A stretch of 64,000 nucleotides of DNA from Pseudomonas phage WP1, in sequence record PP596839.1. One strand, given 5' to 3'. A program made the translations under genes and the position numbers. Numbering within the stretch: position 1 is the stretch's first letter; each line of letters opens with the position of its first letter. The notes beneath the pieces are model-generated. The model was given only the letters and a program-made list of their open reading frames with translations. It was not told where the DNA came from and did not search any database. Positions 65 through 56,560 of the stretch are shown one piece after another.

Positions 65-93
65 TTTACTTCAGCTGCAACCTGCGTTATTAT
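65..93 (+). promoter_or_regulatory. Early promoter family copy (-35 TTTACT, 17-nt spacer, -10 TATTAT)
   Basis: Matches the motif repeated at 34569, 38349, 40058, 42188, 44097 and 56255; followed by RBS caaggag and ATG at 143. Confidence 0.5.
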
Positions 94-142
94 AAACCCA
101 CAGTTAGAAATAACTGAAATTCGACAAACAAGGAGCCTGAAC

Positions 143-1038
143 ATGGCTGGCAAGAAAACCGAGACTTCCAAAGCAACTGAAGAAACCAAGGCCGTTGCGA
201 TGGCCAACGGCGGCGCCGTAGCGACTACTGACGTTCCCGACTTAATGGACCTGGGCGCGCATGACGGCGCCGGTTTCGAAGGGGCTGACGCAGGTTCCAT
301 GCCATTCCCTTCATCCAGATCCTGCAAAAGATGTCGCCGCAGGTCGATGAAGACGACCCGAAGTACATCGAGGGTGCGAAGCCCGGCATATTCCTGAATA
401 CCGTCACCGGCAAGATTTACGACGGCAAAACCGGTCTACTGATCATCCCGGCCGCGTATCGTCGCGAGTTCATTCGCTGGGCTGGCCGCGACGCCGAGGG
501 CGGTTTCAAAGGGTCCATCAGCGTCGAAGACTTCAAGGAAATGATGAAAGACCCTACCAAGGTCAAGGAAGTCGAAGGGCGTCTGTACGCGCCGAATGAA
601 GACGGCTCGGTCAGCGACAAGAAATCCGATTACTTCGCCGACACCCATGGTCATTACGTCATCGTCATCGATCCGGAAACCGGCGACTTCGGCCAGGCCC
701 TGATCTCCCTGTCGTCTTCGCAGATCAAGGCCTCGAAGAAGCTTAATAACCGCCCTGTCCCAGAAGAAAGTTCAGACTCCGCAGGGCCTGCGCACGCCGC
801 CGACTTTCGCCAACCTGGTCCGCATGACCACTGTCGCCATGTCGAACGACAAGGGTACTGGTCCGGCGTCCAGTTCGAACTGGAAGGCCTGGTGAAAAAC
901 CCGGATCACTTCAAGGCGGCCGCCGACCTGTACAAGTCGTTCGTCGGCGATGAGGTGGAGGTGGACTACAGCAAGCAGGAACAGCCTCGCGGCGACGCCG
1001 ATGGCGTGGGCAATGCCACTGAAGCCGAAGAGTTCTAA
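143..1038 (+). CDS. Hypothetical early protein of roughly 295 aa, broken by frame changes near 305 and near 770
   Basis: ORFs 143-397 and 331-1038 join into one reading (..GADAGSMPF/IQILQKMSPQVDEDDPKYIEGAKPGIF..). Own promoter and RBS; no family recognised. Confidence 0.45.
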
Positions 1039-30303: not shown

Positions 30304-30480
30304 TTTAATTCCAATGCGGCTACTGGCCTGTGCACTTATTATAGGGGAAACATCAAACGTTCAAAAGAGATTCAAACAGATACATCACATTAACAGTCGC
30401 AACTAATCAGTCCATGAGAAAATAATTCTTTACGGGAACTTTTCGGCAGATTAGACTCTAATTATCAACCAATGGAGATT
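30304..30480. promoter_or_regulatory. AT-rich divergent promoter region
   Basis: About 33% GC. TTTACG-17nt-TAGACT on the plus strand before the ATG at 30486. On the opposite strand the gene MFKLSW starts at 30303. Confidence 0.4.
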
Positions 30481-30485
30481 AACAA

Positions 30486-30623
30486 TGAATCCTCTTCTTC
30501 CTATCGTACATATCATGCTGAAGGACGGCGAAGTTCCTGGGCCATATTCGACTGCAACAAACCTGCGAAATGGTACAGCGAATCTGAAAGACGCAGCTAT
30601 GGGTTCCTGGGTGATGGAATAGC
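30486..30623 (+). CDS. Small hypothetical protein (45 aa)
   Basis: RBS ggag 9 nt upstream of the ATG; the surrounding region is otherwise unresolved. Confidence 0.2.
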
Positions 30624-30861
30624 CGAACAGCTCGCGCTCGCGCCTGTCAGAAAAGGGTGCCATGAAGTCGGAGATCACGTAATGTATCGCGATGAGCACG
30701 GCGAAGGGCACGGCCGCATACTGGCTGTCGAACCTCGCGGTGAATCGGCGCATGACGAAGAAGGGCTACCACCTGTATCAGATCAATAGCGACGATCCGT
30801 CCAATGAACATCTGGATGCTCGACGCAGACATCATCGGCATTTATCCCGACGAAAAGCGCT

Positions 30862-30897
30862 TTACTTCCTGAAGAGCAGGAATGGAATAAAACCTGC
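30862..30897 (+). promoter_or_regulatory. Early promoter family copy (TTTACT...GGAATAA)
   Basis: gcgcTTTACTtcctgaagagcaggaatGGAATAAaacc resembles the 34569 copy (TTTACT...AGAATAG). Confidence 0.35.
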
Positions 30898-30921
30898 TCA
30901 TCTACCAAAGAGGGTGACGAA

Positions 30922-31462
30922 ATGGCAAGCATCACGGCATGGATCGCCACTGCTTTACCTGTACCTGGCAATGGCCATGTCCAGATGCCGGATCATACCA
31001 GCAGACGGTTCGACAGCAAAGCTAGATGCGAAGACATAATGCTAAGAGCAACTGATAAGACTGTGGGAGCGACATCGACTGGCTGTTCGGGCCGCCTGCA
31101 CGCCTTATTTCCTCAGCAGTACAGAAGTTCCCGGCTTTTACAGTCCGCCGCCCCAGCCGCCCACTGGCCTAGAACCGCCAGCCTCGGAACAGCTGGATTC
31201 GCGGCGGCAGCATCCCGTCGCCATGAGCCGGGAAAGGGCTGGAGCGAATGAAGCCGCGCCGACCGGAAGTGCGGGTCGGCCTGGAAACTGCCGCCCTGGA
31301 TGTCGACATCCGCTGCGCTGCTCGCGGCGATAATCTCTAGCGCGGTTTTCCCGCCCTCGACGATTCAATGTCCGGAAGAAAACCGCCTGCGGCCGAGCGT
31401 TTCCACCATCCGGAAAACAGCAAATTCTTTCCTCACACACAAAAAGGATAATGAGCCATGAA
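30922..31462 (+). CDS. Hypothetical protein with an in-frame TGA at 31249-31251
   Basis: The same frame continues after the stop through to a TGA that overlaps the ATG of the next gene (ccATGA at 31459), which suggests coupling. Confidence 0.3.
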
Positions 31463-32099: not shown

Positions 32100-32405
32100 G
32101 AAAGAGCTGCAGAGCCGACTGAGGCGCCATGATGAATGATTCGCCGGGTCCGACTCTATCTTGGAGCCGACCTGCTGATCCATCGCCGGACCGCCGAAAC
32201 CCTGGAAGTCGGCGACAGCACTGCCAAGACCATCGCGACGAAGCGTCACAGAGTCGCTAACGACGTTCTGGAATCATCCAGCATCTTAATGACTACTGCG
32301 ACAGCCATGCTGAGTACGACTACAACGACGGCGCTGGCATGGATTCAAGATCAGCAGCGACATTTACTGATCGTCAGCAACCCGACGAACGGTAATGCGA
32401 AAGTG

Positions 32406-32451
32406 CTACCGCGTTTCCATTCATGGAGTATAGTCAACCCATCGAAACGAA
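32406..32451 (+). promoter_or_regulatory. Early promoter/leader family copy (variant: -10 TATAGT, leader CATCGAAACGAAC)
   Basis: gtgctaccgcgtttccattcatggagTATAGTcaacccATCGAAACGaactttccaaacaggagaatcgacaATG. Confidence 0.45.
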
Positions 32452-32474
32452 CTTTCCAAACAGGAGAATCGACA

Positions 32475-32804
32475 ATGAACGCAGCAGCCACCTTCAGCGG
32501 TTTCGACGACCTGGAATCCGAAACTGGATCCATCGAAATCTCGTCCGAAAAGCCCGCCACCTGGAAGATGCGTCGATCGGATGCCAAAGAGAATCCATTC
32601 AAAGCGGTCAAGATGTACCGCGAAAAAATCCATAAAAATGCGCAGGCACTGGAATATATCGCGGACCTTCCTCGCCATGGGCACCAATGCTTCGCCTGCG
32701 GCGGCGTCGGCTACAAAGAGTACAAAACCAGCCCCGAAGCACGCGCCAAGAGCCGGTCGAAGGCGGCTGAGAAGCGCCAGCAGAAACGCCATGTCGGCCT
32801 CTGA
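32475..32804 (+). CDS. Hypothetical early protein (about 109 aa)
   Basis: Conserved leader and RBS acaggaga. MNAAATFSGFDDLESETGSIEISSEKPATWKMRRSD.. Cys/His pairs ..HGHQCFACGG... Confidence 0.4.
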   Translation: MNAAATFSGFDDLESETGSIEISSEKPATWKMRRSDAKENPFKAVKMYREKIHKNAQALEYIADLPRHGHQCFACGGVGYKEYKTSPEARAKSRSKAAEKRQQKRHVGL

Positions 32805-33404
32805 GGCAAAACAAGCCAGCATCGCCAAGTTCGAGCAGGATCACCCGGACATCATCAAATGGTGGAGCGACAACAATTTCAGTTTCGCCTGCAGCCTTCG
32901 CGATTCGCTGTATCGATGGGGTCGCCTGTCCGACAACCAGATTGCCGCCGCGAAACGCGCCATCGAGGCCTGGCTAAGCACCGCGAAGAGCAAAAGGCGA
33001 AAGTCGAGGCTCTTCCGACCCTGGACACTTCCGGCATCGAAGAGGCTTTCGATAAGGCCAAAAATTCCGGCATCAAAAGCCCGAAGCTGCGCCTGGCCGG
33101 CGAAGGCGAAGACCCGTTGCCTGGTGATCAAAGAAGCTAGCGTAAACAGCCGCAACTACGGAAGCCTGTACGTCATCGGCGATGTGTCCCTGGGCAAGAT
33201 CACTGGCGGCAAGTTCATCAAAAGCCGCGACTGCACCGACACTGAGAACGAAGAGATCCTGAAGATGTTCGAAAGGCCAATGGAATCGGCAGTCGCCTAC
33301 GGTCGGAAGAGCTGGTCAATGCTCATCCTGCGGTCGCGAGCTGACCAACCACGCATCCATCGAAATGGGAATCGGCCCTACCTGCGCCGGAAAGTTCTTC
33401 GGAT
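32781..33404 (+). CDS. Hypothetical protein with a C-terminal zinc-ribbon-like motif CxxCG..LT...SIEMGIGPTC (2 or more frame changes)
   Basis: MSASEAKQASIAKFEQDHPDIIKWWSDNNFSFACSLRDSLYRWGRLSDNQIAAAKRAIEAWL.. ..VIGDVSLGKITGGKFIKSRDCTDTENEEILKMFERPMESAVAYGRKSGQCSSCGRELTNHASIEMGIGPTCAGKFFG*. Confidence 0.35.
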
Positions 33405-33507
33405 GATCCATCTTACAATCAAAGTCACGGCCTGGTTCGCCCTTCCATGGGCAACCGGCTGGCCCTCATAACACTCTGCCATCCACTCCTGCTACTGAGG
33501 ATTATCC

Positions 33508-34568: not shown

Positions 34569-34617
34569 TTTACTTCCACCTGGATGAAGGCAGAATAGCT
34601 CCATCGAAACGCGAAAC
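34569..34617 (+). promoter_or_regulatory. Early promoter and conserved leader CATCGAAACGCGAAAC
   Basis: TTTACT-18nt-GAATAG, then catcgaaacgcgaaac at 34602-34617 and RBS aaaaggaa. Confidence 0.5.
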
Positions 34618-34639
34618 CTTCAAACAAAAGGAACCGACA

Positions 34640-35420
34640 ATGACCGACCAGAACGAATTCACTCCTGAAGCCATCGAGAAGGCGAAAGATCGCATTCGCA
34701 AGCTGACCGCAATGGCGGCCGACTCGTCCAGTCCGCACGAAGCGGCCATCGCGGCCGAGCGGGTGAAGAAGTTAAAGGACAAACATGATCTTCACGACTT
34801 CGAAGCGACCGGCGAGATTCGCGAAGAATTCGACGAGCAAACTGCTACTCGTTACTATTCCGCAATCCCGAACTGGATGAAGTTCTTCTCGGTGGCCATG
34901 GCGACGTACAATGACTGCATCATGGATTTCGTCGGCGGCATCAACAATCACCGAGCATCGGCTAAGGCGTCCAGGAGCGCTCGCGACGGCAGCACCACCA
35001 AGCGCTGGGTAATGCCGTTCGATTTAAAGGCTACAAACCTGACGTTGAGCTGGCGGTAAACATGTTCAACTCCCTGGTCAATGCAGTAGACCGGCACCTG
35101 CCGGGAATATCAGAAGGCTCAAGGTTTCGAGCGGTTCAACGTCAAGGTCGCCGCGCAATTTAAGCTCGCTGCGACCCAGGAAATCAGCTATCGCCTCCAA
35201 TCCATTACCCGGAAACGCATGGAGCTGGTTTCTTCGGCCGGAACGTACCTGGTGGTGGTTAAGGAAGCTGCGGTCCACGAACATTTCGGCGATCCGGGTT
35301 ACAAGAAGTCGAATGTTACCAAACTAATGCGCCTGGACGACAGTGACGGTCGGCGCGCCTACACTGCCGGGACCAATGCTGGTCGCGACCATGGAAATCG
35401 TTCGGTCGGTGGAGGATTAA
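34640..35420 (+). CDS. DUF2786-like protein (N-terminal helical KAKDRIRKLTAMAADSSSPHEAAIAAERVKKL motif), frameshifted near 34990
   Basis: The N-terminal pattern is typical of DUF2786. The C-terminal part ..YKPDVELAVNMFNSLVNAVDRHLPGISEGSRFERFNVKVAAQFKLAATQEISYRLQS.. lies in another frame. Confidence 0.4.
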
Positions 35421-36857: not shown

Positions 36858-38246
36858 AGAAGTCGAAGAAACCTTTGGGCTTCCTGATCGGCAGGAATGG
36901 CCGACATCGATCACCGAATCAGCGATGTTCGGCGACCTGATCTTGCGCTTCTCGCGCATATCCTTCTTGGACTCGACTTTGAATCGGCCGTTCATATCCA
37001 GGTCTTTGCGCGGCGAGGAAAGTTCGATACACCAGCTGATTTAGCTTGTCCGGGTGAATCGTTTCAGGGTTGATCGAAATCAATTCGTCGAATGGATAGA
37101 CCTTTAGATGGACAACCGCCTCGTAAGTCTTCCGGAACCTTGTCGCGACTTCTTCCCACTTCTGCGCCTTGATACTGCTAAAGTGATCTTTGTTCTTGAT
37201 CGTAGTGTGCGGCAGCTTCATGTAAATATCATCAGGCTTATCTACAGCGCCGCCTGCGTTGAATGGATCATAGGTCAGCCTGAAGCCTGGGCTGGAGTCA
37301 TTCAATTCTGCGAACTTCGACCCGACGTGAGCGCCGACGCCGACTGAGTCATAAGTGACCGAGGCGCCTTTCACCTTCGCCAGGTTGTAAACGCGACTGG
37401 ACGACTTGAGCAACTCATCTTCCAGACCATCCCATTCGTCGACTTCCATGATGACGCTGCCGTGCATTAGAGTCGTGGCGTTCGCATCCTCGCCGTCATC
37501 CGCAACGTCGAAGCCGATGCGCTTCGACCCGGCCGGCTCCCAGCCGAGTTTTTTGTGGGCATCAATGGCAGCGAGGATGAACTTGAGGTTGATGACGGAC
37601 CTGTCGCCGCCCGTCTTCGGAATCCCTCCATGGACGTGCTCAGCCTGGTCCTTGTCGCGCTCATAAGCTTCGTGGATGACCTTGAGCATCGTCTCATCTG
37701 AGAAACGGATTTTCGTTCCAGCTGATCATCCTGACGAAGGCGTCTTTTGGTGGCTTCACCACGAAGTTCTGATAAACGAAGCCTGTTACTTCGTTCGGGC
37801 TGAAGATGATCCAGATTTCCTGAGTTCTCTTTCCGAATGGTCGGCTCAGTGACTTCCCACTGTTCCTGGGTAAGGTAGTGCGCTTCCTCAAGCCAGAGAA
37901 TGTCAGTGCCTTCGGTGGACTTGATTTCCGACAGGTTACGGGCGATCCCATAGAATAAGAATTCTGATCCTGTCCTCTTGTGCTTGATCGAGTTCTTCGT
38001 GAAAATGAACTCGCCGTTGTACTCAGGAATTCTCAATCTTGTCCTTGATCAACGTGTAGACCGATTCGCTGATGCGGTTCTGAAACTGGCGAGCACAGAG
38101 GAACTTGAGTCTATCAGCTGGCCGCGAGGTAAACGGCGATACCGCCTGCGTCGTGTGACTTCGAAGACGCCCGGCCGCCATAAATGACCCTGTAACGGGC
38201 GCGAGTTCGCCAGACCGCTCGCAATCGCAGCGTTGAGCTTGTACAT
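36856..38246 (-). CDS. terL: Terminase large subunit (T4 gp17-type, Terminase_6 family), broken by at least 5 frame changes
   Basis: Walker [27 protein letters not shown]; ..[17 protein letters not shown].. (Walker B / coupling); nuclease-domain [15 protein letters not shown] and [13 protein letters not shown]; C-terminal ..[34 protein letters not shown]... It sits inverted inside a block of plus-strand early genes. Confidence 0.7.
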
Positions 38247-38348: not shown

Positions 38349-38399
38349 TTTACTTCCATTCTGAATAGCGTCATAATCTCTTCATCGAAACGCGAAACA
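38349..38399 (+). promoter_or_regulatory. Early promoter and conserved leader (TTTACT-17-CATAAT; CATCGAAACGCGAAAC)
   Basis: Best-formed copy. RBS aacagaggaacgcagaa before ATG 38423. Confidence 0.55.
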
Positions 38400-38422
38400 C
38401 TCCAAAACAGAGGAACGCAGAA

Positions 38423-38569
38423 ATGACCAAATCCCAGATCAACGATCAAATCCGCTCCGCCAAGATCGCCATCAGCGAGGCAGAAATGGAAGGCCTGCGC
38501 GGCCAGGCCATGATCGCCCTGAAAGCTAAGCTGACCACCCTCAAAGCTCAGTACAAACTCGCCAAATAA
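38423..38569 (+). CDS. Small helical protein (48 aa)
   Basis: MTKSQINDQIRSAKIAISEAEMEGLRGQAMIALKAKLTTLKAQYKLAK. Confidence 0.45.
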   Translation: MTKSQINDQIRSAKIAISEAEMEGLRGQAMIALKAKLTTLKAQYKLAK

Positions 38570-39850: not shown

Positions 39851-40057
39851 CGTGCAGGAATATTGCCTGTACCATATCCCTCGGCCCGGAACGCTCCAGT
39901 TCGAATTCGAACGGACTGCCAGTTCCAAACTCGGCATCAATGACGGCTGCCTGTCTCTGTCATCCGATGGCGAGCGCTACCTGAACGATCACGCTGACTG
40001 GCTCTGGCGACAGTTCCTGGCTTCCAGAAATTTCAGATAATTCTCTCAAAAAGTGCT

Positions 40058-40106
40058 TTACTCGATGAGGTGGCTGAGGTATAGTCACCTCATCGAAACG
40101 CGAAAC
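40058..40106 (+). promoter_or_regulatory. Early promoter and conserved leader (TTTACT-16-TATAGT; CATCGAAACGCGAAAC)
   Basis: RBS aaaaagaggactgcgaa before ATG 40128. Confidence 0.5.
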
Positions 40107-40127
40107 GCTCAAAAAGAGGACTGCGAA

Positions 40128-40379
40128 ATGACCAGCTCCAAATGGAACATCGGCAGAAACGACACCATTGCAGTCGAGGCCGTAAACAGCCGCGAAGATT
40201 TCCGCTGGAATGGCAAGATTCGCGTTATTCACTACAGCGCCGGCCAAATCGTCAACATCATCGAGTTCTATCACCACGACCTGGACTGGGCGATCAAGAA
40301 TTTCGGCATCAAGCTGAAGGCTATCTCCAAAGGCCTGGAAATACTCCACACCTGCTACTTCGGGAAGTATGTCAGATGA
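40128..40379 (+). CDS. Hypothetical protein (83 aa, intact)
   Basis: MTSSKWNIGRNDTIAVEAVNSREDFRWNGKIRVIHYSAGQIVNIIEFYHHDLDWAIKNFGIKLKAISKGLEILHTCYFGKYVR. Confidence 0.5.
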   Translation: MTSSKWNIGRNDTIAVEAVNSREDFRWNGKIRVIHYSAGQIVNIIEFYHHDLDWAIKNFGIKLKAISKGLEILHTCYFGKYVR

Positions 40380-42187: not shown

Positions 42188-42240
42188 TTTACTCGGCGGT
42201 GAGAATCAGGGCATAATCTCTTCACCGGCTGAGAAGCCGG
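42188..42240 (+). promoter_or_regulatory. Early promoter (TTTACT-18-CATAATCTCTTCA) with a leader hairpin CCGGCTgagaAGCCGG
   Basis: A variant leader lacking CGAAACGCGAAAC; RBS aaaaaggaa before ATG 42268. Confidence 0.45.
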
Positions 42241-42267
42241 GCCCAAAGTCCAAAAAGGAATCTCGAA

Positions 42268-42680
42268 ATGTACAGAACTCCCTCGTCCAAGTTCACGTTC
42301 ACCTGCAACGGACTCGCCCAGAGTACTGAAGTGACGGTCCTGCTCCGGACGCAGAAACCGGAAGACGCTATGGGTGGTGGACGAAGCTCCATCCGCTGAC
42401 CTGATTCGTATTCACGAACGCAGCAACAAACGCCGTCGCCGTACCATCAAAATCATCGACGTGGACTCCGTGTCCATCCTTCACAAACGTTAACCCATCG
42501 GCGCGGTCGGAATCGTCCTGGCCGCGCCTTCCGCAGGAGGTTATTATGGCCAAGGTTAATGTTGGCTTGTGAACTGACCGTAGGCGACGAAATACTCACC
42601 CAGTCGTGGACGACAGTGACCCCATTCGGCGTCGAGCCATCGTCCTGCGCACCAGTCCTGCTCCGAACAACAAAATAAGC
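42268..42680 (+). pseudogene. Degenerate tandem paralog(s) of the 42786-43007 gene
   Basis: 42545 MAKVNVGL*..ELTVGDEILTQSWTTVTPF is similar to 42786 MAKVVRVDELKTGDEILIKLRP; the reading is broken by frame changes and stops. Confidence 0.3.
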
Positions 42681-44096: not shown

Positions 44097-44125
44097 TAGA
44101 CACGCAGCATCGACCTAGGCATAAT
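44097..44125 (+). promoter_or_regulatory. Early promoter variant (TAGACA-17-CATAATCTCTTTCA)
   Basis: Degenerate leader cccgaacgaaatc; RBS aaaacagaggatcgcaaa before ATG 44188. Confidence 0.5.
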
Positions 44126-44187
44126 CTCTTTCAACGGGGCGACAAACTGAAGCCCGAACGAAATCTTCCAAAACAGAGGATCGCAAA

Positions 44188-44800
44188 ATGACCAACTCCA
44201 TCAAGACCTTCGGCGACATCCAGAACGCAGAAATGAAAGAACTGGTCGCCTTCTACAACGCTCACAACGCCGATGCGACTGTCAAGCGCTTCTCTGATCG
44301 CAAGACCGCCGAGCGTCGCTGCCTCGCCATCCTGAACGCTCTGCCGGCCGAGGAAGAAGCTTTCCAGGAAGAGGAAGCCCCGGCCAAGGTTTACAAAACC
44401 CGCACTTCCAAGAAGAAGGAAGAAGAGAAGGCCGAAGAAGAAAATCTGAAGCCGGAGGAAGAGGTCACCGAAGAGGAAGCGCTGGAAGAAATCCGGAAGA
44501 TGCGCGAAGAGGCGAAGAAAGCTCCAGGGAAGGTCAAGTAGTCCAGAGACCTGTCCGCAGCCATCGCCAACTCCTGGAAAGACCCGGAAGTCTCCAAGAA
44601 GCGCACCCAGCGTAATGGCGTGGCGGTGACCGTCAAAGGGAAGCGCGGTGAGTTCCGGTCCACCAGCGCAGCATTCATCGAGTTCGGCCTGCCCTCTTCG
44701 AAGCACATCCGCTTCCGCATGGCAGCTGAAGGAGGCCGGCAAGTTGACTTTCGAGCACGAAGGCGTCAAATACAACTTCGAAATCATCGAAGCTGGAGAA
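44188..44800 (+). CDS. Hypothetical protein with a K/E-rich linker, an in-frame TAG at 44539-44541 and a frame change near 44730
   Basis: MTNSIKTFGDIQNAEMKELVAFYNAHNADATVKRFSDRKTAERRCLAILNALP..(EEKAEEE linker)..KAPGKVK*SRDLSAAIANSWKDPEVSKKRTQRNGVAVTVKGKRGEFRSTSAAFIEFGLP.. ..KLKEAGKLTFEHEGVKYNFEIIEAGE*. A terminator follows. Confidence 0.45.
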
Positions 44801-51522: not shown

Positions 51523-52309
51523 TCAGTTACAAATGGCGATATTGATCACTTTATCATGGCCGGCCGCGAACCTCTCCAGGAAGTCCACCAGGTCATTCAA
51601 GATGGTGCCAGCTCGGCCTAGTTTGTGATCGATCAGGAGTTGCGCAGCCCGGTGGCCGACGAATGTTCCTGCAGGAACCTGCGGCCACGCTTCGCCGATG
51701 CTTTTGAGCACCGCATCAGTATAGATTTTGTCTGCACCGACTTTGTGGTGGTCGAGGATCGTGCGGTCGCGAACATATCGATTGATGATCCGCCGCAGGA
51801 ACTCGTCTTCAGTCCCGGCCAGGGCGCCGCATTCATGAAGCTGACGCAGGAGGCGCCACCCCAGGTTACGCTTCCATTTCTCGGCGAATTCTTCGGCCTC
51901 TGCGAATGACGCACGCATAACGCTCTCGACCGGGATGGTGATCGCGCCGCCTTCTTTCGTCCCAGTTTCCAGGACTGCCCATTCACCGTGCTTGCGGTGC
52001 TCGATGAAGCCGATGAGCATTCCGACGTTCGTTTCAGATTCCGCCATCCCAGTCACGCGAACGACGGAATGGCGCGGGAACGCTTTCGATCCATGGAGGC
52101 TGGACTGGGAGTTGACCCACCCAGCGATGGCCAGGTCGGAGGCTTCGAGCATGGATCAGCTCGCGACGAATGCGAACGGCCAGAGCCGGGTCCAGCTCGC
52201 GACTGCGACGCAGGTAGCCGGGCTTTAGGTTCGGGTCGCGAGTCTTATCGACATTGGGATTCGGATTGCCGACCGGGAGTTGGTCGCGGTAAATCTTGCA
52301 TTCTTGCAT
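51523..52309 (-). CDS. Hypothetical protein, first gene of the leftward replication operon (frame change near 52150)
   Basis: An early-family promoter and RBS acagagga lie upstream. MQECKIYRDQLPVGNPNPNVDKTRDPNLKPGYLR.. then an intact 209-aa body. Confidence 0.45.
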
Positions 52310-52351
52310 TTAATGTATCCTCTGTTCTGGAGGGCAGTACAGGCGGCGGCG

Positions 52352-52381
52352 CTAGTATCGGCCACTTTCCTGCCGAAGTAA
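52352..52381 (-). promoter_or_regulatory. Early promoter family copy on the minus strand (TTTACT-17-GATACT)
   Basis: Minus strand reads tTTTACTtcggcaggaaagtggccGATACTagc ... ccagaacagaggatacattaaATG. Confidence 0.45.
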
Positions 52382-52403
52382 AGTTGGATTAAATTCGCTC
52401 GCT

Positions 52404-52477
52404 TTGACGAGTCAGCTGATAGTATACTCTTCTTGCGCAGAGGTAAAGCAGGAACTGTACGTTATAAGGAACATTCA
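52404..52477 (+). promoter_or_regulatory. Rightward replication-operon control region (TTGACG...TATACTCTTC box plus conserved CTGTACGTTATAAGGAAC before the start codon)
   Basis: TATACTCTTC recurs at 59634. CTGTACnnTnATAAGGAAC recurs at 55212 immediately before another ATG. Confidence 0.4.
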
Positions 52478-56101: not shown

Positions 56102-56254
56102 AGCCGGCATCTTCTCGCTCGGTCGGTTCGCGACTTGGCGAAACGTCCTCCTGGACGATCTGGTTTCGGACATGGACGTCATCGAGCGCCTGATGACTTC
56201 TTCGTCTTATCAGAAGGCCAAGAAGATGTTCGTGAAATAATTTACACAAAGTGC

Positions 56255-56304
56255 TTTACTTCTTAGCCAGGTGAGAGTAGTATTCCCTCATCGAAACGCG
56301 AAAC
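56255..56304 (+). promoter_or_regulatory. Early promoter and conserved leader (TTTACT-17-TAGTAT; CATCGAAACGCGAAAC)
   Basis: RBS caaaaggaatcgacaaa before ATG 56330. Confidence 0.5.
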
Positions 56305-56329
56305 CCTTCAACCAAAAGGAATCGACAAA

Positions 56330-56560
56330 ATGGCCCGCGAAGTAACCTTCTCCACCGACAAAAACACCACCAAGACCTACGCCACCAAGGCCAATCTCGA
56401 ACGCGCCATCGCCAAGGCCGAATGGCTCGGTGAAAGTGCACGCTACTTCATCCACCTGACCGAGGATGGCCGCCTGACGCCCGTGTTCCTTCTTAACAGT
56501 CTTCCTGCGGGAACTGGCGCGGTGTGGTGCGCCCAGCACGGCTGGAATGTGATAGGTTAA
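56330..56560 (+). CDS. Hypothetical protein (76 aa, intact)
   Basis: MAREVTFSTDKNTTKTYATKANLERAIAKAEWLGESARYFIHLTEDGRLTPVFLLNSLPAGTGAVWCAQHGWNVIG. Confidence 0.5.
   Translation: MAREVTFSTDKNTTKTYATKANLERAIAKAEWLGESARYFIHLTEDGRLTPVFLLNSLPAGTGAVWCAQHGWNVIG

What the first reader, a model, noticed from the sequence alone, without database searches (positions are those of the whole stretch)
34569..34642. Family of at least 9 near-identical early promoters with a conserved 5' leader CATCGAAACGCGAAAC and RBS AACAGAGGA
Copies at 65-93, 30862-30897, 32406-32451, 34569-34617, 38349-38399, 40058-40106, 42188-42240, 44097-44125 and 56255-56304, plus a minus-strand copy at 52352-52381. All share a -35 TTTACT (TAGACA in one copy), a 16-18 nt spacer and a -10 CATAAT/TATAGT/TAGTAT. 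In six copies this is followed by (C)TCTTCA-TCGAAACGCGAAAC-(N)CTCCAAAACAGAGGA-N7-ATGACC (two of them degenerate). Conserving a leader 25-40 nt past the -10 box goes beyond what a sigma70 promoter needs. The tandem CGAAAC-G-CGAAAC could be a binding site for a phage RNA-binding translational regulator, a processing site, or part of an expanded promoter recognised by a modified host RNA polymerase. Each copy drives a small gene that mostly begins MT(K/S/N/D).
Basis: seen in the sequence. Interest (0 to 1): 0.6.

Follow-up and report, generated by a model that had tools for sequence, protein, structure and literature searches.

The report
Shared start-site box of phage promoters
The repeated "leader" is the first 15 bases of the messenger RNAs made from a family of host-type early promoters in a PB1-like Pseudomonas phage; its first eight bases (ATCGAAAC) are a start-site motif shared by strong promoters of more than a hundred unrelated phages, and its function is not yet known.

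Summary
The window is a Pbunavirus (PB1-like P. aeruginosa phage). Ten are orthologous to transcription starts mapped by ONT-cappable-seq in phage 14-1.

The mapped +1 is the A directly before TCGAAAC, so the "leader" is the extreme 5' end of the mRNA. It is exact in 4 copies and truncated in a fifth, not present in six. A published promoter fragment ending at +1 is fully active without the leader or any phage protein. An "expanded promoter for modified RNA polymerase" is therefore not supported.

Unexpectedly, A(+1)TCGAAAC, always 6 nt after the -10 box, recurs at 124 or more non-redundant strong promoters. These come from about 109 distinct phage lineages, including the T4-like phages Aeh1, KVP40 and phiAS5. 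A composition-matched control 8-mer gives none. Beyond +8 only an A-rich, T-poor tract is shared, so the tandem CGAAAC repeat is Pbunavirus-specific detail. PAK_P3 lacks the motif.

The best guess (about 0.35) is a start-site / initial-transcribed-sequence element acting during initiation by host RNA polymerase. A role of the 5'-terminal RNA and a role as a recombination cassette remain open. Within Pbunaviruses the cassettes are exchanged between paralogues.

The parts
65..145 (+). Family promoter: -35 TTTACT 65-70, -10 TATTAT 88-93, TSS A100. The leader begins with the hairpin CAGTTA-GAAA-TAACTG (101-116). ATG at 143. No ATCGAAAC.
   Evidence: Orthologue of 14-1 P024 (TSS 39481). RNAfold puts the hairpin at +2 (-5.3 kcal/mol in 14-1).
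30429..30487 (+).
   Evidence: Orthologue of 14-1 P012 (TSS 9116).
30861..30924 (+). Family promoter: -35 TTTACT 30861-30866, degenerate -10 TAAAAC 30888-30893 (21-nt spacer in this phage), TSS A30900 (ATCTACC...), ATG 30922.
   Evidence: Orthologue of 14-1 P010 (TSS 8684).
32405..32477 (+). Promoter with diverged -35 (GTGCTACC), -10 TATAGT 32429-32434, TSS A32441. Truncated leader ATCGAAACGAAC 32441-32452. ATG 32475 (homologue of 14-1 gp12 / DUF6011).
   Evidence: Orthologue of 14-1 P009 (TSS 6637 = A before TCGAAAC).
34569..34642 (+). The copy named in the finding: -35 TTTACT 34569-34574, -10 CAGAAT 34591-34596, TSS A34603, leader ATCGAAACGCGAAAC 34603-34617, SD AAAGGAA, ATG 34640 (DUF2786 protein).
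   Evidence: Orthologue of 14-1 P006 (TSS 4479 = A).
38349..38425 (+). -35 TTTACT 38349-38354, -10 CATAAT 38372-38377, TSS A38384, leader 38384-38398, SD AACAGAGGA 38406-38414, ATG 38423 (48-aa protein).
   Evidence: Orthologue of 14-1 P001 (TSS 707 = A; promoter validated in vivo).
40057..40130 (+). -35 TTTACT 40057-40062, -10 TATAGT 40080-40085, TSS A40092, leader 40092-40106, ATG 40128 (83-aa protein).
   Evidence: Orthologue of 14-1 P049 (TSS 65240).
42188..42270 (+). -35 TTTACT, -10 CATAAT 42212-42217, predicted TSS A42224. The leader starts with the hairpin CCGGCT-GAGA-AGCCGG (42225-42240). ATG 42268. No ATCGAAAC.
   Evidence: 14-1 P048 was called 8 nt further downstream, inside the hairpin.
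44097..44190 (+). -35 TAGACA 44097-44102, -10 CATAAT 44120-44125, TSS A44133. Leader with a GGGGC...GCCC hairpin. SD AACAGAGGA 44172-44180, ATG 44188.
   Evidence: Orthologue of 14-1 P043 (TSS 61300).
56255..56332 (+). -35 TTTACT 56255-56260, -10 TAGTAT 56278-56283, TSS A56290, leader 56290-56304, ATG 56330.
   Evidence: Orthologue of 14-1 P028 (TSS 49234).
52307..52382 (-). Minus-strand member: -35 TTTACT 52382-52377, -10 GATACT 52359-52354, TSS about 52346, SD AACAGAGGA 52326-52318, ATG 52309. No ATCGAAAC.
   Evidence: Orthologue of 14-1 P038 (TSS 53163; validated in vivo).
52398..52447 (-).
   Evidence: Orthologue of 14-1 P037 (TSS 53097). RNAfold gives -6.8 kcal/mol with 1 unpaired 5' nt in 14-1.

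Best explanation
SHOWN: The sites are a family of 12 host-RNA-polymerase (sigma70-type) promoters of a Pbunavirus. Transcription starts at the A immediately 5' of TCGAAAC, so ATCGAAACGCGAAAC is the initial transcribed sequence and the 5' end of a 36-40 nt 5'-UTR. The first eight bases, A(+1)TCGAAAC, always 6 nt after the -10 box and preceded by C or T at -1, are a motif shared by strong sigma70-like promoters of more than 100 unrelated phage lineages. Downstream of it only an A-rich, T-poor tract is shared. INFERRED mechanism (my best guess): the 8-mer is a start-site / initial-transcribed-sequence element that acts while host RNA polymerase initiates. It fixes the start at an optimally placed A. 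It also provides a template without T's or pause-prone TG steps at +3..+8, which would favour fast, productive promoter escape from tightly bound early promoters. The A-rich, T-poor continuation gives a short unstructured leader in front of the SD. The extra identity of +9..+15 and of the rest of the UTR among Pbunavirus paralogues is best explained by exchange (gene conversion) between cassettes, not by a second binding site.
For: TSS position: ONT-cappable-seq Table S3 for 14-1, read against the 14-1 sequence, and orthology to the window. Leader dispensable for promoter activity: P001 and P038 fragments ending at +1 are active in E. coli and P. aeruginosa. Generality: TANNNT-N6-ATCGAAAC-NNN-AAAC gave at least 120 IMG/VR loci. 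Of 116 unique sites, 37 had a promoter score of 10 or more and 22 had 11 or more. The permuted control ATAACGAC gave 51 unique sites, with 2 at 10 or more and 0 at 11 or more. Scans unconstrained for a promoter: 8 of 91 ATCGAAACGCAAAAC hits scored 9 or more, against 0.5% at random positions and 1 of 120 in bacterial genomes. There are 124 non-redundant TTGAC/-10/ATCGAAAC promoters in 109 nucleotide-level clusters, GC 0.28-0.66, including Aeh1, KVP40 and phiAS5. Anchoring to the TSS rather than the RBS: the discriminator is 6 nt (once 7), while UTR length runs from about 16 to 75 nt. Tail: T is 10% at +9..+20 against 23% at +40..+70, and information content is below 0.7 bit per position. Published ITS library: T's and TG near +5/+6 slow escape (PMC5961368). 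T7 A1 starts ATCGAGAG and T7 A3 starts ATGAAACG. Cassette exchange: L025 combines the 40092-type promoter (40/45) with the 38384-type UTR (27/27).
Against: No kinetic or expression data exist for this sequence. Published ITS rules are loose and do not predict one exact 8-mer. Known sequence-specific RNAP contacts downstream of the -10 box reach only to about +2 (my knowledge). PAK_P3 infects the same host and has 58 sigma70-like promoters, yet has no ATCGAAAC at +1, so the motif is not a universal optimum. P001 is very strong without it.
Confidence: 0.35

Rival explanations
1. 5'-terminal RNA element. The sequence pppAUCGAAAC plus its A-rich tail acts on the transcript. It could protect the 5' end (a poor RppH / RNase E substrate, or a marginal U2-C3-G4 / C10-G11-A12 hairpin leaving one unpaired nucleotide). 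Alternatively it could serve as an unstructured standby or enhancer region for the 30S subunit, raising the stability or translation of early mRNAs.
For: The motif lies exactly at the RNA 5' end. Other family members start with clear hairpins at +2 (TSS 100, 42224, 52412), a geometry known to stabilise mRNAs (ompA-type; my knowledge). RNAfold places .(((.....))) on the leader. Most UTRs are short (median 28 nt) and T-poor. In L247/L233 the ATG follows 1-3 nt after the 15-mer without an SD.
Against: The 3-bp hairpin is thermodynamically marginal. The C3:G11 pair is not maintained: ATCGAAACGCAAAAC (C.A) is the commonest promoter-associated variant outside Pbunavirus, and positions 9-11 are free. 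There is no complementarity to 16S, 23S or 5S rRNA beyond shuffled controls. There is no Rfam match. UTR length varies from 16 to 75 nt, so the geometry relative to the RBS is not fixed. No promoter-less intergenic copies in front of internal genes were evident.
Confidence: 0.25
2. Modular-shuffling cassette. The promoter+leader (and the ATGAC start) are conserved mainly because they are repeated homology blocks. Recombination and gene conversion between these blocks move and replace small early genes, as proposed for PeSL cassettes of T4-type phages. The leader would have little or no role in expression.
For: Mosaics are directly visible. L025 has the 40092-type promoter, the 38384-type UTR and the 40128 gene. 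Other Pbunaviruses carry different UTRs and genes (MTKQ..., MNATYQ...) behind the same promoter and ATCGAAACGCGAAAC. The copies sit in regions of small ORFs of unknown function. Some ATCGAAAC promoters in T4-like phages have the PeSL-type stem-loop over the -35 box.
Against: This does not explain why the same 8-mer at exactly +1 is shared by about 109 lineages whose -35, spacer, -10 and discriminator sequences are unrelated. Neutral hitch-hiking would not keep 8 nt exact while the spacers randomise. Recombination is an added property, not an alternative.
Confidence: 0.2
3. Operator for a Pbunavirus-encoded (or host) regulator, essentially the first reader's idea. A protein binds the tandem CGAAAC-G-CGAAAC on DNA (+2..+15, blocking initiation) or on RNA, to shut off or tune early genes.
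For: All 15 of 15 nt are identical in four paralogues and well conserved in 13 Pbunavirus genomes, which is more than the generic motif requires. The position at +1..+15 is a classical repressor roadblock site (my knowledge). 14-1 encodes early proteins that target RNA polymerase (gp12; cited in PMC10914365).
Against: The second repeat is not conserved in the wider family. Natural variants hit different positions of the two units (ATTGAAACGCAAAAC). A 7-nt direct-repeat spacing is unusual for dimeric DNA binders. The extra conservation is explained by cassette exchange. No candidate binding protein was identified.
Confidence: 0.12
4. Chance or compositional artefact: A-rich starts after 'CAT' are simply common at promoters.
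For: Across the whole window ATCGAAAC is not significantly over-represented (7 against 3.35 expected). A-rich leaders are common.
Against: Five of the 7 window copies sit exactly at +1 of mapped-type promoters. The composition-matched control 8-mer gives no strong promoters. Bacterial-genome occurrences are not promoter-associated.
Confidence: 0.03

Closest known systems
Sigma70-like promoters of Pseudomonas phage 14-1 mapped by ONT-cappable-seq (Putzeys et al. 2024, PMC10914365; P001, P006, P009, P010, P012, P024, P028, P037, P038, P043, P048, P049)
   Same: Orthologous sites with the same -35/-10 boxes and the same start nucleotide. P001 and P038 were shown to be active with host polymerase alone.
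   Different: That study analysed -50..+1 only. The conserved transcribed leader and its occurrence outside the genus are not described there.
Initial transcribed sequence / 'downstream sequence region' of strong phage promoters (T5 N25, T7 A1; Hsu lab PMC12464699; Heyduk and Heyduk 2018 PMC5961368; Bujard-lab work from memory)
   Same: An element at +1..+20 that is not needed for polymerase binding but can change productive output by orders of magnitude. T7 A1 starts ATCGAGAG and T7 A3 starts ATGAAACG.
   Different: Those studies find loose rules (T's and TG slow escape) and no exact motif. Here one exact 8-mer is shared by about 109 lineages, and its effect on escape is untested.
PeSL (promoter-early stem-loop) mobile regulatory cassettes of T4-type phages (Arbiol 2010 PMC2839356; Comeau 2014 PMC4122927)
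   Same: Repeated sigma70-type early promoters lie between small ORFans. They sit at junctions of gene replacement between close relatives. Some ATCGAAAC promoters in KVP40-like contigs have a stem-loop over the -35 box.
   Different: PeSLs are defined by promoter plus stem-loop. No +1 motif is reported for them. Most Pbunavirus copies lack an adjacent terminator-like stem-loop. Mini-circle formation was not tested.
5'-terminal stem-loop mRNA stabilisers (ompA 5'-UTR type; my knowledge)
   Same: Family members at TSS 100, 42224 and 52412 start with a stable hairpin after a single unpaired nucleotide.
   Different: The ATCGAAAC leader has at best a 3-bp stem, without covariation support.
T4 RegA / RegB post-transcriptional control of early mRNAs (review PMC3014915 listed; details from memory)
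   Same: A phage-wide cis element on many early mRNAs.
   Different: RegA and RegB sites overlap the SD/AUG. This motif is at the 5' end at a variable distance from the AUG, and no cognate protein is known.

Membership tests
Host sigma70-dependent phage early promoter | -35 and -10 hexamers separated by 16-18 bp | tested here: met
   Eleven of the 12 copies meet this. The copy at 30900 has a 21-bp spacer in this phage.
Host sigma70-dependent phage early promoter | Primary transcript 5' end 6-8 nt downstream of the -10 box | tested here: met
   Met through orthologues: the 14-1 ONT-cappable-seq TSSs fall on the A 6-7 nt after the -10 box. Not measured in this phage itself.
Host sigma70-dependent phage early promoter | Activity with host polymerase and no phage factor | not testable with these tools
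   Published for orthologues P001 and P038 (GFP reporters in E. coli and P. aeruginosa).
Host sigma70-dependent phage early promoter | Early timing during infection | not tested
   Inferred from factor-independence and from location in small-ORF regions. The cappable-seq samples were pooled over time points.
Initial-transcribed-sequence (ITS) element modulating promoter escape | Located within +1..+20 and dispensable for polymerase binding | tested here: met
   The motif spans +1..+8(+15). The P001 fragment ending at +1 is active.
Initial-transcribed-sequence (ITS) element modulating promoter escape | Changes abortive/productive ratio or escape rate | not testable with these tools
   Only indirect evidence: no T after +2 and no TG at +5/+6, features linked to slow escape.
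PeSL mobile early-promoter cassette | Repeated early promoter at junctions of gene insertion or replacement between close relatives | tested here: met
   Promoter/UTR/gene mosaics are seen among Pbunaviruses.
PeSL mobile early-promoter cassette | Conserved stem-loop (terminator) attached to the promoter | tested here: inconclusive
   No consistent stem-loop upstream of or across the Pbunavirus promoters. It is present in some T4-like ATCGAAAC promoters.
5'-terminal stem-loop stabiliser | Stable hairpin starting within 1-2 nt of the 5' end, supported by covariation | tested here: not met
   For the ATCGAAAC leader the stem is 3 bp, the C.A variant is common and positions 9-11 are free. The feature is met for the non-ATCGAAAC copies at 100, 42224 and 52412.
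Translational operator (RegA-like) / RNA-binding regulator site | Site overlaps or lies at fixed distance from SD/AUG | tested here: not met
   The motif is fixed to +1, and its distance to the AUG varies from about 2 to 60 nt after the 15-mer.
Any curated RNA family (Rfam 15) | Covariance-model match | tested here: not met
   Only a spurious lncRNA hit at E = 0.57 in 30000-58000.

The most novel reading that the evidence does not exclude
ATCGAAAC at +1 is a previously unrecognised, sequence-specific 'early start box'. A conserved host component would read it: RNA polymerase during initial transcription, or a factor that recognises the triphosphorylated 5' end. Many unrelated virulent phages (Pbunavirus, T4-like Aeh1/KVP40/phiAS5, many 35-48 kb phages) would have acquired it to secure immediate, high-level expression of their first genes. 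It would be a portable part for promoter design and a marker for finding phage early genes in metagenomes.
Probability: 0.3. Interest if true: 0.8.

Novelty: new variant of a known kind. Interest (0 to 1): 0.55.

Why it matters
The Pbunavirus promoters are already mapped, so that part is ordinary. Two things appear to be undescribed in the literature I could search. One is that the conserved leader is the initial transcribed sequence. The other is that its first 8 nt form an exact motif shared by strong promoters of more than 100 unrelated phages.

If the motif affects initiation or the fate of the 5' end, it would show that bacterial promoters can carry a discrete, conserved element downstream of +1. 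It would also give a simple handle for annotating early transcription units in uncultured phages. And it would supply a compact part (promoter + 8-mer + A-rich leader) for synthetic biology.

The idea is directly testable with standard in vitro transcription and reporter assays, and partly with an existing public ITS-library data set.

Tried and rejected
1. Mini-hairpin with covariation (U2-C3-G4 / C10-G11-A12). The Pbunavirus variant ATTGAAACGCAAAAC and L019 copy 2 suggested it, and RNAfold draws it. I rejected it as a requirement because the C.A variant is the commonest promoter-associated form elsewhere and positions 9-11 are free.

2. Base-pairing with rRNA. Duplex energies with E. coli 16S, 23S and 5S are no better than for shuffled leaders.

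3. Known RNA family. Rfam gave nothing.

4. Motif drives non-coding RNAs. The apparent 'no SD' cases are protein-coding with weak SDs or roughly 75-nt UTRs. The tRNA and tmRNA genes in those loci are not directly downstream.

5. Universal feature of P. aeruginosa phages. PAK_P3 has none.

6. Host-genome use. It is useful only as a negative control.

7. Distant relative L204 (59% TerL identity). The 11-kb locus does not cover the early region, so it is uninformative.

8. Literature text searches for TCGAAACGC and ATCGAAAC found only primers and eukaryotic sites.

9. Ideas from memory that I did not pursue for lack of support: resemblance of AUUGAAAC to the 8-nt crRNA 5' handle (AUUG is the minority variant); LacI-family half-sites (GAAAC-G; the motif here is not palindromic); tRNA T-loop similarity; leaderless AUC initiation (not in frame in most copies).

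10. My first Pfam query for the 40128 gene used the wrong frame. It was redone.
Full report
**Identity of the window.** The 15-kb stretch 30000-45000 matches 302 phage records, 293 of them Pseudomonas phages of the PB1-like genus Pbunavirus. The best match is 94.9% identity to phage Pa-A. The window runs opposite to the reference phage 14-1 (NC_011703), so the 14-1 '-' strand is the window '+' strand.

**Check of the observation.**
- TCGAAACGCGAAAC occurs exactly four times, all on the + strand (34604, 38385, 40093, 56291). With 2 mismatches allowed there are 6 matches against 0.76 expected.
- Each of the ten listed sites has a -35/-10 pair.
- I found two further members: TSS 30464 (+) and TSS 52412 (-).
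- The full leader is in four copies, with a shortened version (ATCGAAACGAAC) at 32441.
- The copies at 42224 and 44133 share only the discriminator CTCTT(T)CA and have different leaders.
- AACAGAGGA is exact in three family members.
- The spacers between the hexamers are unrelated between paralogues. The conservation is therefore in discrete blocks (GCTTTACT, the -10 box, a pyrimidine-rich discriminator, the leader, the SD region, ATGAC) and not over the whole promoter.

**Where transcription starts.**
- Putzeys et al. 2024 (PMC10914365; preprint supplement Table S3) mapped 50 primary 5' ends in 14-1 by ONT-cappable-seq.
- Twelve of these are orthologues of the window's family.
- I read the reported coordinates against the 14-1 sequence. 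P001 (707), P006 (4479) and P009 (6637) all start at the A of CA|TCGAAAC. P028 and P049 do the same.
- So the leader is +1..+15 of the mRNA, which begins 5'-pppAUCGAAACGCGAAAC.
- The published GFP constructs for P001 and P038 end at +1 and use a heterologous RBS. [quoted passage not shown]
- The leader is therefore not part of what host polymerase needs to recognise the promoter, and no phage factor is needed.

**Conservation within the genus.**
- In 13 Pbunavirus genomes or contigs the orthologous leaders are kept with a few variants: ATTGAAACGCGAAAC, ATTGAAACGCAAAAC, ATCGAAACGCAAAAC, and small loop indels in one contig.
- The cassettes are mosaic. Contig L025 joins the 40092-type promoter (40/45 identical) to the 38384-type UTR (27/27) and the 40128 gene. 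Other genomes place different UTRs and genes behind the same promoter and 15-mer.
- This resembles the modular shuffling proposed for PeSL early-promoter cassettes in T4-type phages. It also explains why Pbunavirus paralogues are identical well beyond the core motif.

**The unexpected result: the motif is not genus-specific.**
- A scan of IMG/VR with the exact 15-mer found Pbunavirus contigs and also three unrelated contigs. In these the 15-mer sits exactly 6 nt after a near-consensus -10 box: L019; L031; and L038, which is the T4-like Aeromonas phage phiAS5.
- I scored -35 + -10 + spacer. Such scores occur at 0.5% of random positions and at 1 of 120 occurrences of the 15-mer in bacterial genomes.
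- The variant ATCGAAACGCAAAAC is promoter-associated in 8 of 91 hits.
Of 116 unique sites, 22 score 11 or more and 37 score 10 or more, many with a perfect TTGACA. Positions 9-11 take almost any sequence: ACA 11, GCG 7, GCA 6, AGC 5, AAG 5 and so on.
- The composition-matched control (ATAACGAC in place of ATCGAAAC) gave 74 loci and 51 unique sites. None scores 11 or more and 2 score 10 or more, and among the ten best-scoring sites I examined none is followed by an SD and start codon.
It gave 124 non-redundant promoters from 141 loci, which fall into 109 megablast clusters with GC 0.28-0.66. They include three sites in Aeromonas phage Aeh1 and one in Vibrio phage KVP40.

**Anatomy of the general element.**
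- Position -1 is C (70%) or T (23%) and never G.
- +1..+8 is ATCGAAAC.
- +9 is a purine, +10..+14 are A-rich and +15 is weakly C.
- T makes up 10% of +9..+20, against 23% of +40..+70.
- An SD and start codon usually follow quickly (UTR median 28 nt, interquartile range 24-32). UTRs of about 16 nt (L247) and about 75 nt (L031, L743, L759) also occur.
- The motif is thus anchored to the transcription start and not to the ribosome-binding site.
- In the window, 5 of the 7 ATCGAAAC copies lie at +1 of family promoters.
- The motif is lineage-restricted. PAK_P3 infects the same host and has 58 sigma70-like promoters, but has none at +1.
- T7 A1 (ATCGAGAG) and T7 A3 (ATGAAACG) are partial matches.

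**What it does.** Nothing here measures function. I excluded the following:
- rRNA complementarity;
- any Rfam family;
- a covarying 5' hairpin;
- a fixed relation to the RBS;
- a requirement for promoter activity.

What remains must be read at the transcription start.

My best guess (0.35) is a start-site / initial-transcribed-sequence element. It would act during initiation by sigma70 holoenzyme: an optimally placed A start, with no T's or TG steps in +3..+8. Such steps slow promoter escape in a 262,144-variant ITS library (PMC5961368). ITS sequence is known to modulate the output of escape-limited phage promoters strongly (PMC12464699).

The weaknesses are that such rules do not predict one exact 8-mer, and that PAK_P3 does without it.

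The rivals are:
- a 5'-terminal RNA function in stability or translation (0.25);
- conservation mainly as a recombination cassette (0.2; not exclusive);
- a Pbunavirus-specific operator using the second CGAAAC (0.12).

**Comparison with what is known, and novelty.** The promoters themselves are published. The ITS concept, PeSL cassettes and 5' stabiliser hairpins are all known kinds. I found no description of a conserved +1 motif ATCGAAAC, or of the Pbunavirus leader, in the searchable literature. That search is limited to open-access text. I therefore rate this as a new variant of a known kind, with moderate interest.

**Caveats.**
- The TSS evidence is from an orthologous phage, not this one.
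- The promoter score is a crude hexamer count.
- Three collection scans were truncated at 120 rows, so the counts are lower bounds.
- Lineage independence was judged by nucleotide clustering only.
- The hosts of most contigs are unknown.

Noticed in passing
window 100-116 (+), 42224-42240 (+), 52412-52398 (-), 44133-44160 (+): Family promoters that lack ATCGAAAC begin with a stable hairpin directly at +2 (A-CAGUUA-GAAA-UAACUG; A-CCGGCU-GAGA-AGCCGG; A-CUCGU-CAAA-GCGAG; AAC-GGGGC...GCCC). Only one nucleotide is left unpaired, the geometry of 5'-terminal mRNA stabilisers. Orthologues keep the stems, with G.U and loop changes.
   Followed up: partly
window 34618-34636, 38399-38415, 40107-40121, 32453-32470, 44155-44181, 56305-56323, 52330-52317 (-): In the Pbunavirus UTRs a CU-rich tract (CCUU, CUCC, UUUCC, CCUC) lies 5-8 nt upstream of the SD and is complementary to it (AAGG, GAGG, GGAGA). 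This gives a weak SD-sequestering hairpin with an A-rich loop, and the pairing partners differ between paralogues in a matching way. It is not seen in the wider ATCGAAAC family.
   Followed up: partly
window 32475-33471, 34640-35059, 36919-38036 (-), 44188-44541, 52034-52309 (-): Many conserved genes are split or truncated compared with 14-1 and with PHROG profile lengths. Examples: TerL is in two ORFs; the gp12/DUF6011 homologue hits three frames; the gp08, gp77 and gp70 homologues are about half length. This suggests indel errors in the assembly, or pseudogenisation, in this genome.
   Followed up: partly
window 30861-30900: This copy has a 3-nt insertion in the spacer (21 nt) and a -10 box of TAAAAC, where relatives have 18 nt and TAGACT or TAAAAT. 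It is probably a weakened promoter or another sequence error.
   Followed up: partly
window 52346-52447 (-) and the facing + strand: There is a compact divergent promoter cluster. Two minus-strand family promoters 65 nt apart (TSS 52412 and about 52346) face a plus-strand promoter orthologous to 14-1 P036.
   Followed up: no
14-1 (L001-L003); orthologous window positions, e.g. about 35010, 30610, 42510, 43095: Eleven 14-1 TSSs carry a different published motif (CTGGG about 5 nt before the start). It is inactive in E. coli and is probably the phage-factor-dependent middle or late class. The sites are conserved in the window but I did not examine them.
   Followed up: no
L743:3360-3753 (-), L759:3689-4081 (+): ARAGORN calls permuted tmRNA genes (tag peptides ANRMAMAA / ANQLAMAA), with several tRNAs, in uncultured phage contigs that also use ATCGAAAC promoters.
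   Followed up: no
L247 (- strand, index 760) and L233 (- strand, index 588): TATAAT/TACAAT-N6-ATTGAAACGCAAAAC is followed after 1-3 nt by ATG (MIQLRPHQQ..., helicase-like N-terminus) with no SD. This gives a 16-18 nt near-leaderless UTR preceded by a terminator hairpin.
   Followed up: no
L019:5474 and L019:6028 (+): Two paralogous cassettes lie in one 44-kb uncultured phage: ATCGAAACGCGAAAC and ATTGAAACGGCAAAAC. They have almost identical spacers, so the multi-copy arrangement seen in Pbunavirus recurs elsewhere. L440, L675, L678, L698, L707 and Aeh1 also have 2-3 copies.
   Followed up: partly
window -35 regions, e.g. 40052-40062, 56250-56260: The extended -35 block (A)AAGTGCTTTACT contains TGCTTTA, which equals the T4 MotA-box consensus as I remember it. 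Here, however, it sits at the -35 distance (17-bp spacer), and the promoters work without phage factors.
   Followed up: no
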